Source: Escherichia coli
GTDB lineage: Bacteria; Pseudomonadota; Gammaproteobacteria; Enterobacterales; Enterobacteriaceae
Strand: one strand, 5' to 3'
Length of the DNA stretch: 64,000 nucleotides
NCBI RefSeq assembly: GCF_003790525.1
Contig: NZ_CP033635.1
Shown here piece after piece: positions 36,001-42,000 of the stretch. Position numbers: made by a program. Each line of letters begins with the position of its first letter. The first letter of the stretch is position 1.

Positions 36001-39000
36001 CATCTGGCGTTCGAACAGACACGGGCTGTTCATCCAGACGATGATTACTGGTACGTACTTGTGCGCCCAGATATGCCTGGTTTGCAACTACCGAGTCGGC
36101 AACAAAGCATTGCGGACCAATCGTTGCTTCCGTTTCAATAACCGCATTTTTAATTTCGGTGGCAAAACCAATTTTTACGCCATTGCTGATTATTGTGCCA
36201 GGACGAATAAACGCATAATTACCTATCAGGCAGTTTGCGCCAATCACTACCGGCCCCTGAATAACGGCACCGTGGCAAATACGGGTATTCGCGCCGATAA
36301 CAACTTCACCTGCACTTTCATCAATAATTACCTGGTCTGCAATCTGAGTATTTTTCTCTTTAACATTAAGCTCCAGATAGTTTTTCAGTTTCTGTGACAG
36401 AAGGTTGGGAATAAGCGGTTGACGTTTCCACCAGTGCGGAATAGCGGGTGGGTTTGTCGCGCTGAGGTTCGCGTCCAGTAAAAAAGGCAATAAGTCCATA
36501 AATAATCCAGATGGCATAAGCTAATAATACATACACAACGGAAAGCGGAGCTAAAGGTACTAACAACCAGCAACGATGAAACCAGGCGCTAAAAGTACCA
36601 ATAACACAAACTATGCCGACCCAGATAAGCGGGAACATTGCCATCACCACACCATGTGGCCCGGTGGTGATGAATTCATTAAACCAGGTAGTGAGATAAA
36701 TCCCAACGCCATAAAGCACAACCAGCAGCATAGGAAATATACTGAAGATACCGAAGCGGCTAAATAAAAGTCTTTTATGCAGGCGCATACAGACCGCGTA
36801 GCCCACAATCCAGCGCCGCCAGCGACGCCACTCCTCACGAAGGCTGTTGCATTCCTGTGGGTATACGATACAGCGATTCACCTGCCGAATACGGTAACCA
36901 TTGGCGACCAATGTCCAGGTGAGATCGAGATCTTCAACTTTGGTACGGTCCGAAAAACCGAATTTACGCAGCACATCGGTACGGAACATCCCGCAGGCAC
37001 CGCTGATAATAAACGGTGCACCACCCAGGAACTGCTGTAGCGTACGCTTCATAGCAATCATCGGCAACTTTACGGTGGCGCGGATATGTGGCAGCAGACC
37101 TGCCCCTTTTAACGCGGTGGAGGGAATTCCGCCAACGGCATCAGCGCCGCGCTCAATTTCTGCCAGCATATAGCCCATTCCATCACTGTCAGGTGGAACG
37201 AAAGTATCTGCATCACTTAAAAATACTTGATCACACGTGGCGTATTTTATTCCATGCATTAGTGCGCCACCTTTACCGGTGTTTTTTTGCGTGACGGCAA
37301 CAAAGCGGTCGCCCCATTTGCGTTTGACTTCCGCCATGACCGCTTCGGTATTGTCCGTGGAGCCGTCGTTAACGCAAATTACCCGGCAAAAATAAGGGTT
37401 ACGCAGCAGATTATCCAGTGACTGCGCCAGACACGGGCCTTCGTTATAAGCAGGTATAATGACGTCAATACAGCCTTTCTTTTGACTGGGTTTACGTCTT
37501 AGCGTACTTAAAAACCATAGCAACATTACTATGGACATACAGATAAATATCCAAGTCTTCATTTATGAAATCCAGTCATAACACCATTTTGTATATAATA
37601 AAACCTTCGCACATAGCGCAGTTTGCCTGTTGCCCTCTGAAACTGGCCTGACTATGTAAATATTCATGTTGCATATATTTACGTTGACTCTGGCTTTTAT
37701 GCTCTTTCAATGCCATTAATTTTTTATTAAATTCATTCTGCTCTATTGCTTCAAAAGCATGAGGGGAAAATGAAATCCATGCACTTGGTGTTTCATATCC
37801 CAGTATCTGAGGAATATAACGACAGGCAACCATTGATGCCTGATAAACAGCAATATGATCCTGATGCCTGTCAGAATTATTCATGGTATAAACTCTCGTA
37901 ATTTCGACATCCTGAGGGATATCATTAGCAATTATATTTTCCAGGGAAGATATCATGTCTCTTATCTGTAAATAAAGACGGGTATCCTCAAAATTAAGAT
38001 GAATTGACTTGTCACATCCCAGTATTTTTAATGCTTTCTGTGACTCTTTATGACGGTCAGTATCTTTTCCCCCACAACAACCGGGGGTCATAACTACCGC
38101 GATAGTATATATATTTCTGGCAGAAAAAGTTGCAAGAGATGCACCACATCCTAATTCTATGTCATCAGGATGTGCACCTATTGCCAGTACACCTGTTCTC
38201 TTTCCTGAATATGTGATAGAATTTAACAAGATACCTTCCTTATCTACTTCCTGTTATATGCTTCTCCCCATTATAAATATTACCATTGTATTAATTTCAA
38301 ATTAACTAATTAACTTTCTCAGATGATGCCTGACATCAGTAATACACTGATTCTATCTTGTAGTGAGGACTTTTAGCACCAGTTCACTGAGCTCATGCTT
38401 AACTGCATCATGGAATCTGATGTCAGCTGGCCTGTGACAGGAAAATTATCGAACCGGAAAAGTAAAGTGGAACTGAATTCACACTGAAGGAGATATTTCG
38501 ATTCACAGCATGCTGGCTCAAGGTTTGTTGAATAAATAGAACTTTTGGGTAACTGGAGGAGCTGAGCGCAACCGTAGCTTACACCGGCTCCCCATGGCAA
38601 AGTTAAATTTTAAACTCACCAGACAAGTCGCACACAGCCAGGTACTGCTGACCGAAATGAAACCGTCTTTTATGATCTGGTCGGCAGGATAGCGTCCTTC
38701 GTCAGAAATACTGGTATGTATTGCTCCGGCTCAGAGATTTAACTTCAGATACGGCAAACAATTGCTGGAAATTGTTGCGTAAGTCGTTGACTGAATTGAA
38801 TATTTACTTAATCCAGAGAGTGCAGAAGAAAGTCATTTAGCGCAATATGAAGACTTTATCGCAGCATGGCCCCCGTTTTGTGAAGCCTGGGGATCGTCCG
38901 TTATTACTGATGACGCTTATCGTACCGTTCCATGTTCTGGTCTCAGGTCCGGACAGCCTGTTCCGTGCAATTTTCGATGAGCAGGGCATTCCTGCCTGGC

Positions 39001-42000
39001 TGGGGGAAACAAAATGCCGGAGCACGACAGCCGTCAGAATCGATCGTCTGGCAGGTATAAAGATATTGATGTTCTCTGTTTTGATCACGATAACAGAAAA
39101 GACATGGATGCGCTAATGGCAAGCCCGCTGTGGCAGGCTGCCCGCGTTCTGGACAAAACCATTGGATGCAAAGCGTGAGTATACGAATTGCGCTTTTCCC
39201 CGCGTCATTGCCGCGTTTTCTGTCGCCGTCATGCTTGCTCTGGTTGTATGCGTAGTCTGGCAAGTATTTAGCCGCTACGTACTTAACCAGCCAAGTACAT
39301 TAACCGATGAGCTGGCACGCTTTTTGATGATCTGGGTAGGATTATTAGGTGCTGCATATACCGTCGGCGCGCAGAGACATCTCTCTATCGATTTATTTGC
39401 TCTCGCCCTGAATAAGCGCAAGCAATTACTTCTTAGTATAGTCATTAACATTCTCATTTTAGGTTTTGCCGGTTCGGTCATTGTGACTGGTGGCCTGAAA
39501 TTAATTGATAAAACACTGACAACATCACAGGTATCTGCCGCGATGCAAATACCGATGGGATACGTATATATCATTCTGCCATTAAGTGGATTGGTGATGA
39601 TGTTTTATGCCTTGTGTTTTATTAATCAAAGCATTCAACAACTGAAACAACCTGCGCAGGAGGCCAGTTAATGGATAGTTATATCGCGCTTACACTGTTT
39701 GGCTGTTTTTTTGTGCTGGTCTTTATTGGTGTGCCCATTTCGTTCTCAATCGGTATTGCCACTGTAGCTTCAATGCTGTTGATGTTTCCCTGGGATATCG
39801 CGGCAATCACTGTTTCGCAGCGACTGGCTAATGGACTGGATAACTTTGCCCTGTTGGCAATCCCCTTTTTCATCTTTGCCGGAACGCTGATGAACAGCGG
39901 CGGTATTGCGATACGTTTGATTAACCTCGCCCAGGTAATGGTTGGCCGCGTTCCTGGTTCGCTTGGTCATGTGAACGTCCTGGCGAATATGATGTTTGGT
40001 TCCATTTCTGGTTCAGCCGTTGCGGCAGCTGCTGCCGTTGGTGGCACACTGAATCCCATTCAGACCAAAGAAGGTTATGATCCGGCATTTTCTACCGCTG
40101 TAAACGTCTCATCCTGTATTACTGGATTACTGATACCGCCCTCAAACGTGTTAATTGTATTTTCCCTGACAGCTGGCGGCGTTTCTGTAGCATCGCTATT
40201 TATGGCGGGATATTTGCCAGGGATCTTAATGGGTCTCGCGGTAATGATAGTCTGCGGCATTATTGCTAAACGCCGTGGCTACCCACTTTCAGAAAAAGCA
40301 ACCTTTGCTCAGGCATGTAAAGCGTTTCTGGATGCCTTACCAAGTTTGCTTCTGGTGTTCATTGTAATGGGCGGCATTCTGGGCGGCATTTTTACCGCAG
40401 CTGAAGCGTCAGCAATTGCCGTGGTCTACACATTTATTCTCTCGGTGCTGATTTACCGGGAAGTAAAATGGCGCGATTTACCCAAACTGATTCTGGAATC
40501 GGTTGTTACCACTTCGATTGTATTACTGTTGATCGGTTTTTCCGTGGGCATGTCCTGGGCAATGACCAATGCTGATATTCCTTATATGATCAGCGACGCG
40601 TTGATGGGGATTTCTGATAACCCACTGGTCATATTGCTGCTGATTAATATCGTCTTATTAATTGTCGGCATCTTTATGGACATGACACCGGCTGTACTAA
40701 TCTTCACACCAATCTTCTTGCCGATTGCACAAGAGCTGGGAATGGATCCGGTACATTTCGGTATTATGATGGTGGCCAACCTTTGTATTGGGCTGTTAAC
40801 ACCGCCGGTGGGTAGTGCGCTATTTGTTGGTTGTTCTATTTCAGGTGTGAAGATTCAACATTTGCTTAGACCATTGCTACCCTTTTATACAGCATTGCTA
40901 GTCGCATTGATGATGATCACTTACATTCCACAAATCTCTTTATTTATCCCACAATTTCTAGGGCTGATGTAAATAATTAATAGCCGGACAATTTTTATTG
41001 TCCGGTAAAATTCATCGTAAGCGCTCCTTCTGTGCCGTCTTGTGGTGGTTGTCCTGTCTGGCAACAATCGCGTCCATCTATTGATGGACACGAACGATGT
41101 GGATTTGCCCCTATATATCCAGACATCTGTTATCACTTAACCCATTACAGGCCCGCTGCCGCAGATATTCCCGTGGCGAGCGATAACCCAGTGCACTATG
41201 CGGATGCCATTCGTTATAATGCTCGAACGCCTCTGCAAGGTTCTTTGCTGCCGTTAACCCGTCTGGTTTGGGCATGACACTGATGTAGTCACGCTTTATC
41301 GTTTTCACGAAGCTCTCTGCTATGCCGTTACTCTCCGGACTCCGCACCGCCGTGTTCTTCGGTTCAAGCCCCAACATCCGGGCAAACTGCCGTGTTTCAT
41401 TAGCCCGGTAGCATGAACCATTATCCGTCAGCCACTCTACTGGAGACGCCGGAAGCTCGTTGCCGAAGCGGCGTTCCACCGCTCCTGGCATTACGTCCTG
41501 TACTGTTTCACTGTCGAAGCCGCCCGTAGTGACTGCCCAGTGCAGTGCCTCACGGTCACAGCAGTCCAGCGCGAACGTGACTCGCAGTTTTTCTCCGTTA
41601 TCACAGCGGAACTCGAACCCGTCAGAGCACCATCGCTGATTACTTTCTTTCACAGCCACTCTGCCGGTATGTGCCCGTTTCGATGGCGGTACAGCGGTTT
41701 TTCGCTCAAGCAACAGCGCATTCTGGCGCATGATCCGGTAAATACGTTTGGCATTGATCGCAGGCATACCATCAAGTTCTGTTTGTCTGCGAAGCAGCGC
41801 CCATATCCGACGATAACCATATGTGGGTAGCTCTCCGATAACATGGTGTATACGGCGAAGCACATCCGTATCATCCGTGTGACGGCTGCGGCGTCCGTCC
41901 TTCCAGTCATCGGCTCGTCTGAGAATTACGTGCAACTGCGCACGCGACACCCGGAGACAACGGCTGACGAAGCTTACTCCCCATCCCCGGGCAATAAGGG

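What the first reader, a model, noticed from the sequence alone, without database searches (positions are those of the whole stretch)
38230..41099. TRAP transporter permease genes with no substrate-binding protein gene, next to an IS2 lacking a target duplication
DctQ- and DctM-like genes are present and followed by a terminator hairpin, but no DctP-type binding-protein ORF is found in the 900 bp upstream or downstream. The adjacent IS2 (41100-42430) has no 5-bp target duplication (flanks CGATG versus CTCCC), consistent with an IS2-mediated deletion or rearrangement that removed neighbouring DNA.
Basis: seen in the sequence. Interest (0 to 1): 0.4.

Follow-up and report, generated by a model that had tools for sequence, protein, structure and literature searches.

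The report
Broken TRAP transporter operon remnant
This is the leftover two-thirds of an E. coli sugar-acid (TRAP) transporter operon whose binding-protein gene was cut away on its upstream side, inside an island full of insertion sequences; it is ordinary gene decay, and the neighbouring IS2 did not cause the loss.

Summary
dctQ (39162-39671) and dctM (39671-40972) are present. No DctP homologue exists anywhere in the 64-kb window. IS2 (41100-42430) has flanks CGATG/CTCCC and so no 5-bp duplication.

Intact E. coli orthologues are dctP-dctQ-dctM, with dctP upstream of dctQ. Examples are the ST131 chromosome between hemW and yggM, and an island in strain LH50-c. In the window, homology to those operons starts abruptly at 39200, 32 nt inside dctQ. 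To the left lies a decayed fragment about 82% identical to the 3' part of fhuD plus the first bases of fhuB. There is no IS end at that joint. So dctP, the operon promoter and the dctQ start were lost by an illegitimate join on the side opposite IS2.

The IS2 marks a separate rearrangement. It sits 83 bp inside the end of an IS66-family element that abuts dctM. The rest of that element is gone. The DNA to the right of IS2 is continuous with a different neighbour in other genomes.

The same fhuD'::'dctQ joint occurs in 14 complete genomes with differing IS2 states. dctP and dctM co-occur in about 1,470 genomes, so the orphan state is exceptional.

Verdict: a probably non-functional remnant of an ordinary operon, of low interest.

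The parts
38230..38643 (.). Non-coding spacer between the divergent PIG-L deacetylase gene (37576-38229, minus strand) and the fhuD' fragment. It has no ORF of note.
   Evidence: ORF list; stops in all frames. It is shared at 99.5-100% identity with 14 genomes. Promoter-like matches are no more frequent than in shuffled sequence.
38644..39199 (+). Decayed fhuD'-fhuB' remnant. Positions 38644-39138 align to nt 270-770 of E. coli fhuD. An 85-bp internal deletion follows. Positions 39143-39199 align to the end of fhuD and the first bases of fhuB (fhuB-type GTG at 39175). The fragment carries frameshifts and stops.
   Evidence: 81.8-81.9% identity to core fhuD-fhuB in 5,400+ genomes; alignment: 408/502 and 64/76 identities. 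PGAP marks it as a pseudogene. One search shows the stops.
39199..39200 (.). Breakpoint. Homology to intact dctPQM operons begins at 39200, which is nt 33 of dctQ. All of dctP, the operon promoter region and the first 32 nt of dctQ are missing. The joint lies in a CC shared by both parents, with patchy similarity beyond it.
   Evidence: alignment with L004 and L005; the fhuB alignment runs a few bases across the joint.
39162..39671 (+). 5'-truncated dctQ (TRAP small permease). The reading frame is fortuitously extended upstream into fhuD'/fhuB'-derived sequence to a TTG, which gives a chimeric N-terminus: LDAKREYTNCAFP replaces MIFNRLKLAVD. No Shine-Dalgarno sequence is visible before the TTG.
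39671..40972 (+). Intact dctM (TRAP large permease, 433 aa). It differs from the LH50-c copy at only 2 amino acids and 7 synonymous codons.
40983..41006 (+). 10-bp stem-loop after dctM, conserved in position in the intact loci. There is no U-tract on the + strand.
41017..41099 (+). Terminal 83 bp (GTAAGCGCTCC...) of an IS66-family element. This is the true right-hand boundary of the TRAP module. The element is cut off by IS2.
   Evidence: 83-93-bp matches at 90.5-98.8% identity to IS66-like element ends on plasmids; 98.8% identity to the element in p14EC020b; LH50-c keeps 94 bp.
41100..42430 (-). IS2 (1331 bp) with orfA and orfB intact and no 5-bp target duplication (CGATG versus CTCCC). It joins the IS66-family end to an unrelated segment.
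   Evidence: One search shows this variant differs at 41 nt from the IS2 copies of Ch1 and LH50-c.
42431..52000 (.). Segment 'B' (hypothetical gene, sodC, ABC transporter, glpQ-like, ROK regulator and so on). In other genomes it continues leftwards into a different neighbour (IS3-family pseudogene, LysR regulator, ankyrin-repeat gene, fdrA) with no IS2. It is not part of the TRAP remnant; it shows that IS2 is a recombination joint.

Best explanation
The locus is the remnant of a dctP-dctQ-dctM TRAP transporter operon, probably a hexuronate importer, carried on an IS-rich E. coli genomic island.

Left side. An illegitimate (microhomology-type) join fused nt 33 of dctQ to a decayed fhuD'-fhuB' fragment. 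This removed dctP, the promoter region upstream of dctP and the dctQ start codon.

Right side. Separately, the operon is bounded by the end of an IS66-family element. An IS2 landed inside that element, and a later IS2-associated rearrangement (deletion or IS2-IS2 recombination) replaced the rest of the IS66 element with an unrelated segment.

Consequence. What remains is an N-terminally chimeric dctQ and an intact dctM, with no cognate binding protein and no native promoter. TRAP transporters depend on their binding protein, so the pair is most likely non-functional and simply too young to have decayed.

Shown: the breakpoints, the parental sequences and the gene order in intact loci. Inferred: the recombination mechanisms, the order of events and the loss of function.
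For: - Intact orthologues are dctP-dctQ-dctM. These are the ST131 chromosome between hemW and yggM (97.8% identity over 39200-40998) and the LH50-c island (99.5% identity over 39200-41099).
- Identity to both starts exactly at 39200, 32 nt into dctQ.
- Sequence to the left of the break is 81-84% identical to the E. coli fhuD 3' part plus the fhuB start. It has an 85-bp internal deletion and frameshifts.
- There is no DctP homologue in the 64 kb.
- The shared module of the intact loci includes about 160 bp upstream of dctP, which the window lacks.
- The same fhuD'::'dctQ joint is found in 14 complete genomes. Only two of them (GF60, TUM9803) retain full dctQM.
- dctP is present in 1,476 genomes and dctM in 1,470.
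- Positions 41017-41099 are the end of an IS66-family element.
- The right flank of IS2 has another left neighbour elsewhere.
- IS2 copies at this locus in different strains are different variants, and the GF60 copy shows clustered differences suggestive of conversion.
- The DctP of the intact operons is closest to PDB 4ovr, 4n15, 4ln5, 4x8r and 4mhf (E 2e-69 to 3e-63). Of these, 4N15 was the modelling template for the D-glucuronate binder STM3169, and 4MHF and 4N91 are glucuronate/galacturonate binders according to PMC7660916.
Against: - Both ORFs are intact. dctM shows only 2 non-synonymous against 7 synonymous differences from the copy in the complete operon, so sequence alone cannot show loss of function.
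- GF60, the closest complete genome, has a second dctM-matching place. If that is a full operon, its DctP could serve these permeases in trans.
- Read-through transcription from upstream cannot be excluded.
- The exact parent of the fhu fragment is unknown, so the microhomology at the joint was judged against the E. coli fhuB allele only.
- The window's own genome is not in the collection: the best matches are 99.7% (GF60) over 10 kb and 99.98-100% (one mismatch, TUM9803) over only 5.5 kb.
Confidence: 0.88

Rival explanations
1. One reading: the adjacent IS2 (41100-42430) mediated the deletion that removed dctP.
For: IS2 lacks a target duplication, and the DNA on its right has been exchanged. 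IS2 has clearly been active at this locus: Ch1 carries an IS2 inside dctQ.
Against: - dctP lies upstream of dctQ in all intact loci, and IS2 is downstream of dctM.
- The dctP-side break has no IS end.
- LH50-c has IS2 11 bp away and retains dctP.
- GF124.3 has the same fhuD'::'dctQ joint with no IS2 at this locus.
Confidence: 0.04
2. A functional orphan permease pair. DctQM is expressed and works with a DctP encoded elsewhere in the genome, for example the chromosomal hemW-yggM operon, whose DctQM is 97.8% identical.
For: The ORFs are intact, and dctM has its own good ribosome-binding site (GGAGG before the ATG at 39671). GF60 has a second dctM-matching place.
Against: - The native promoter region and the dctQ start are gone.
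- The replacement start is a TTG with no visible Shine-Dalgarno sequence, and it changes the first 11-13 residues just ahead of the first hydrophobic stretch.
- TUM9803 has only this one dctM copy.
- 12 of the 14 genomes with the joint have gone on to lose most of dctQ and all of dctM, which argues against selection for retention.
Confidence: 0.07
3. A non-canonical TRAP system that uses the upstream FhuD/TroA-type protein as its binding component.
For: PGAP places a 'TroA family / FhuD' pseudogene 23 bp upstream of dctQ on the same strand.
Against: - The fragment is about 82% identical in DNA to E. coli fhuD nt 270-770. It is followed by the fhuD end and the fhuB start codon region, so it is a piece of an fhuCDB ABC operon.
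- It lacks its 5' third, has an 85-bp internal deletion, frameshifts and stops. Its translated pieces hit no Pfam family.
- dctQ itself is truncated at the joint.
Confidence: 0.01

Closest known systems
DctPQM-type tripartite ATP-independent periplasmic (TRAP) transporters, in particular the hexuronate-binding subgroup (S. Typhimurium STM3169-3171; Bamb_6123 / PDB 4N15; Bpro_3107 / PDB 4MHF)
   Same: The DctQ and DctM proteins are standard family members (Pfam PF04290 and PF06808). The DctP of the intact E. coli orthologues is closest to hexuronate-binding proteins with solved structures.
   Different: Here the binding-protein gene, the promoter region and the first 32 nt of dctQ are missing. 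The window holds a bipartite remnant, not a tripartite system.
E. coli accessory dctPQM operon between hemW (yggW) and yggM (for example ST131), and its island-borne copy in strain LH50-c
   Same: 97.8% and 99.5% nucleotide identity over dctQ (from nt 33), dctM and the hairpin. The LH50-c copy shares the IS66-family end downstream.
   Different: Those loci keep dctP and the upstream region. The window copy is fused to fhuD'-fhuB' at 39200.
IS2 (IS3 family) insertions and IS-associated deletions or recombination in E. coli pathogenicity islands
   Same: A 1331-bp element with the usual ends and two overlapping ORFs. Absence of the 5-bp repeat is the classic signature of a secondary rearrangement at an IS. 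The 5-bp repeat and the transposition pathway are described in PMC3299598.
   Different: Nothing unusual. The rearrangement it marks is on the far side of the TRAP genes from the missing dctP.
fhuCDB ferric-hydroxamate ABC transporter operon
   Same: Positions 38644-39199 align to the fhuD 3' part and the fhuB start.
   Different: It is a 556-bp decayed fragment at about 82% identity, separate from the genome's core fhu operon. It has no function in the TRAP remnant.

Membership tests
TRAP transporter (DctPQM type) | Large 12-TM permease of the DctM family | tested here: met
   PF06808 E 2.6e-120, full-length match 1-413/413. TIGR00786 471 bits against a cut-off of 268.
TRAP transporter (DctPQM type) | Small permease of the DctQ family, full length | tested here: inconclusive
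   PF04290 E 1.6e-30. However, the first 32 nt of the native gene are replaced and the ORF now starts at a TTG in foreign sequence.
TRAP transporter (DctPQM type) | Cognate DctP- or TAXI-type solute-binding protein gene in or near the operon | tested here: not met
   tblastn with the orthologous DctP proteins against the whole window gives a best E of 0.28. The nearest binding-protein gene is an ABC-type SBP_bac_8. The upstream fragment is fhuD-derived.
Hexuronate-specific TRAP subgroup (STM3169-like) | Binding protein that binds D-glucuronate or D-galacturonate | not testable with these tools
   This is inference only. The DctP of the intact E. coli orthologue hits 4ovr, 4n15 and 4mhf at E 2e-69 to 3e-63. 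4N15, 4MHF and 4N91 are described as hexuronate binders or templates in PMC7660916. The window itself has no binding protein.
IS2 (IS3 family) | About 1.33-kb element with IS2 terminal repeats and orfA/orfB | tested here: met
   1331 bp with ends TGGATTTGCCCC... and ...GGGGCCAGTCTA. ORFs of 136 and 301 aa. 97% identical to copies that PGAP names IS2.
IS2 (IS3 family) | 5-bp direct target repeat of a simple insertion | tested here: not met
   CGATG versus CTCCC. The same holds for the copies in GF60, LH50-c and Ch1.
IS66 family element | Complete element (tnpA, tnpB, tnpC between inverted repeats) | tested here: not met
   Only the terminal 83 bp are present at 41017-41099, 98.8% identical to the end of an element on p14EC020b. 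No continuation lies to the right of IS2.
FhuD / TroA-type binding protein | Intact reading frame with a Peripla_BP_2-type domain | tested here: not met
   Stops and frameshifts. No Pfam hit for the translated pieces. Missing the 5' 270 nt and an internal 85 bp.

The most novel reading that the evidence does not exclude
The truncated, chimeric DctQ together with the intact DctM is still expressed and transports a substrate. It would do so either with a DctP supplied in trans from a second locus or without any dedicated binding protein. That would be a natural example of a TRAP membrane module uncoupled from its operon partner.
Probability: 0.04. Interest if true: 0.45.

Novelty: already known. 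Interest (0 to 1): 0.08.

Why it matters
It matters little beyond correct annotation.

- These two 'TRAP transporter permease' genes, annotated as intact in RefSeq, belong to a beheaded operon. They should not be counted as a working transporter in metabolic or virulence inferences for these avian or food-chain E. coli.
- 'No target duplication next to a missing gene' is not enough to blame the IS. Here the break that removed the gene is on the other side and is IS-free.
- The set of related islands (window/GF60, TUM9803, Ch1, GF124.3, LH50-c) gives a small, clean series of successive IS2-, ISEc23- and microhomology-associated deletions in one island. In strain Ch1 this island is inserted at tRNA-Phe.

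Tried and rejected
- I considered that the upstream 'TroA/FhuD' pseudogene might be an unconventional TRAP binding partner. I rejected this because it is a piece of an fhuD-fhuB operon at about 82% DNA identity, with an internal deletion and stops.
- I looked for the reciprocal products of an IS2-IS2 exchange. The queries were the IS2 right end + CGATG + the rest of the IS66 element, and the native left neighbour of segment B + CTCCC + the IS2 left end. No clean junction exists in 5,426 complete genomes. The few full-coverage hits are two pieces hundreds of bp apart, or a gapped 94% match. Deletion therefore cannot be distinguished from exchange.
- I first misread the common start of many genome matches at 42430 as a shared module boundary. 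It is only where IS2 interrupts the query, and strain 135 continues leftwards into native sequence.
- I tested whether the 284 bp at 61745-62028 is an IS2 remnant, which might explain the Ch1 IS2 position. It is not. It encodes the N-terminus of a different IS3-family OrfA.
- I tried to establish whether the closest complete genomes have a spare DctP. I could only show that GF60 has two dctM-matching places and TUM9803 has one. The second GF60 place was not located.
- The promoter scan upstream of dctQ gave no more matches than shuffled sequence.
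Full report
**What the window is.** The region is E. coli accessory DNA. Window 36000-46000 matches strain GF60 over its full length at 99.7%. It matches strain TUM9803 at 99.98-100% (one mismatch) up to 41525. In strain Ch1 the same island is inserted at tRNA-Phe next to yqgA-speC. The island is crowded with insertion sequences (IS1414, ISEc8, ISEc23, IS2, IS3- and IS21-family fragments).

**Checking the observation.**
- The two ORFs at 39162-39671 and 39671-40972 are a DctQ-family small permease (PF04290, E 1.6e-30) and a full-length DctM-family large permease (PF06808, E 2.6e-120; TIGR00786 471 bits).
- A 10-bp hairpin follows at 40983-41006 (-16 kcal/mol, z = -4.1). 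It has no U-run on the + strand, so it is a hairpin but not a textbook terminator.
- IS2 occupies exactly 41100-42430 with flanks CGATG and CTCCC.
- There is no DctP-like gene. tblastn of the DctP proteins from the two intact orthologous operons against all 64 kb gives nothing better than E = 0.28.
- The nearest binding-protein gene (44210-45289, minus strand) is an ABC-type SBP_bac_8 protein in an ABC operon.

**What intact loci look like.** About 1,470 of 5,426 complete E. coli genomes carry dctM and 1,476 carry dctP. In ST131 the operon is dctP-dctQ-dctM between hemW and yggM. It is 97.8% identical to the window from 39200 to 40998. Strain LH50-c carries an island-borne copy, again dctP-dctQ-dctM, that is 99.5% identical over 39200-41099. 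The binding protein is therefore a normal part of this operon and lies upstream of dctQ. This rules out the refuting possibility that orthologous loci naturally lack it.

**The break that removed dctP.** Identity to both intact operons starts abruptly at 39200, which corresponds to nt 33 of dctQ.
- The native start MIFNRLKLAVD is replaced by LDAKREYTNCAFP, read from a TTG at 39162 with no visible Shine-Dalgarno sequence.
- To the left, 38644-39138 aligns to nt 270-770 of E. coli fhuD (408/502 identities). After an 85-bp gap, 39143-39199 aligns to the end of fhuD and the start of fhuB (64/76), with the fhuB-type GTG at 39175.
- This fragment has frameshifts and stops, and PGAP marks it as a pseudogene.
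- The joint falls in a shared CC, with patchy similarity between fhuB and dctQ just beyond it. No IS terminus is present.
- I infer an illegitimate, microhomology-type join. The shared module of the intact loci also includes about 160 bp upstream of dctP, so the operon's own upstream control region is gone too.

**The right-hand side and IS2.** The 83 bp between the hairpin region and IS2 (41017-41099, starting GTAAGCGCTCC) are the terminal sequence of an IS66-family element. They are 98.8% identical to one on plasmid p14EC020b.
- LH50-c has the same IS66-family end at the same distance from dctM. It keeps 94 bp of it before its own IS2.
- That IS2 differs from the window's at 41 positions. 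The IS2 copies of Ch1 and LH50-c differ from each other at only 12. These are therefore separate IS2 insertions into one ancestral IS66-family copy.
- In neither strain does the IS66 element continue to the right of IS2.
- The window's right flank (42431 onward: hypothetical gene, sodC, an ABC transporter and so on) is continuous in strain 135 and others with a different left neighbour and has no IS2.
- IS2 is thus a recombination joint between two segments that were not originally adjacent. That explains the missing 5-bp repeat.
- I could not find reciprocal junctions in any complete genome. Deletion and IS2-IS2 exchange therefore remain undistinguished.
- Clustered differences between the window's IS2 and GF60's copy at the same site (12 mismatches in two patches) suggest conversion among IS2 copies.

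**Why IS2 is not the cause of the dctP loss.**
- IS2 lies on the opposite side of the operon from dctP.
- LH50-c has IS2 nearby and retains dctP.
- The fhuD'::'dctQ joint is present in 14 complete genomes whose IS2 states differ.
  - GF60 and TUM9803 have full dctQM followed by IS2. In TUM9803 the IS2 is cut at nt 426 and fused to the last 268 bp of ISEc23.
  - Ch1 has dctQ cut at window position 39534 by an IS2 that abuts the MgtC segment, which in the window lies at 62029.
  - GF124.3 has the same 39534|62029 joint with no IS2 at all.
- Only two of the 14 genomes retain dctM.

**Function.** TRAP transporters depend on their binding protein (established knowledge of the family; see also PMC7660916). 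Here dctP, the upstream region and the dctQ start are missing, so the pair is most likely inactive.
- The ORFs are still clean: dctM has 2 non-synonymous and 7 synonymous differences from LH50-c. This fits a recent truncation rather than maintained function.
- Most relatives have gone on to lose the genes.
- The DctP of the intact operons is closest to PDB 4ovr, 4n15, 4ln5, 4x8r and 4mhf. 4N15, 4MHF and 4N91 are treated as hexuronate binders or templates in the STM3169 study. The ancestral system was therefore probably a glucuronate/galacturonate importer. That is an inference from similarity.
- A residual possibility is supply of DctP in trans. GF60 has a second dctM-matching place, while TUM9803 has only this one.

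**Verdict.** The deletion reading is right in spirit, but it names the wrong agent and the wrong side. The locus is a beheaded, probably dead operon remnant in a mosaic island. It is an ordinary outcome of IS-rich island evolution and is already annotated piecemeal in RefSeq.

Noticed in passing
window 50873-50958: An 86-bp miniature IS2-like element. It has an IS2 left-end repeat (TAGACTGGCCCCCTGAATCTCC) and a diverged 49-bp right end (82% identity) separated by about 15 bp, with no transposase and no obvious 5-bp repeat (flanks GCGGT / AGGAA). It is also present in strain 135 at the same place.
   Followed up: partly
L003 (Ch1) 11490-12920 versus L007 (GF124.3) 10800-10900; window equivalents 39534 | 62029: Ch1 has IS2 exactly between truncated dctQ (..CACAGGTAT) and the MgtC segment (TTTCCACTGCC..). 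GF124.3 has the same joint with no IS2 and exactly one T fewer. The missing base lies on the IRL side. That recalls the 1-bp spacer which IS2 circles take from IRL-flanking DNA (PMC3299598). However, clean loss of the donor copy is not a standard outcome of that pathway, and the run of T's makes the reading ambiguous.
   Followed up: partly
window 41486-41534 and 42139-42238 (inside IS2): The window and GF60 carry IS2 at the identical site, yet the two copies differ at 12 positions clustered in two patches. The flanking TRAP DNA is identical. This looks like gene conversion between IS2 copies.
   Followed up: no
window 35032-38229, minus strand: A four-gene cluster: YaiO-type outer-membrane barrel, hexapeptide-repeat acetyltransferase, family-2 glycosyltransferase and PIG-L-type deacetylase. 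It looks like a small surface-polysaccharide synthesis and export module. It is transcribed away from the TRAP remnant.
   Followed up: partly
L001 (GF60 0.945 Mb) and L011 (GF60 3.94 Mb): GF60 carries the sodC / ABC-transporter segment twice, about 3 Mb apart and in opposite orientation. One copy follows the TRAP remnant. The other sits in its native context with an IS2 inserted about 540 bp further in.
   Followed up: partly
window 59213-61744 and 61745-62028: A complete ISEc23 (IS66 family), followed by a 284-bp remnant encoding the N-terminus of a different IS3-family OrfA (HTH_Tnp_1). After that comes the MgtC / nucleoside hydrolase segment from 62029. In GF124.3 the same ISEc23 instead sits inside the fhuD' fragment with an 8-bp repeat (window 38777-38784).
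   Followed up: partly
L010 (CP088648.1, deposited as a plasmid) 4478-5969: This record contains the chromosomal hemW-yggM region. An IS1 transposase gene is annotated where dctP should be, upstream of intact dctQM, and no dctP gene is listed. This may be an independent, IS-caused loss of the same binding-protein gene. The dctP sequence there was not examined. The record may also be a mis-assigned chromosomal fragment.
   Followed up: no
L005 7800-7880 and L004 7810-7890 (upstream of dctP in intact loci): The conserved roughly 160 bp upstream of dctP contains repeated GTGGTCTAACAGG / TTGGTCGGACAAG-like motifs. These resemble a GntR-type operator, which would fit hexuronate regulation. I did not test this.
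   Followed up: no
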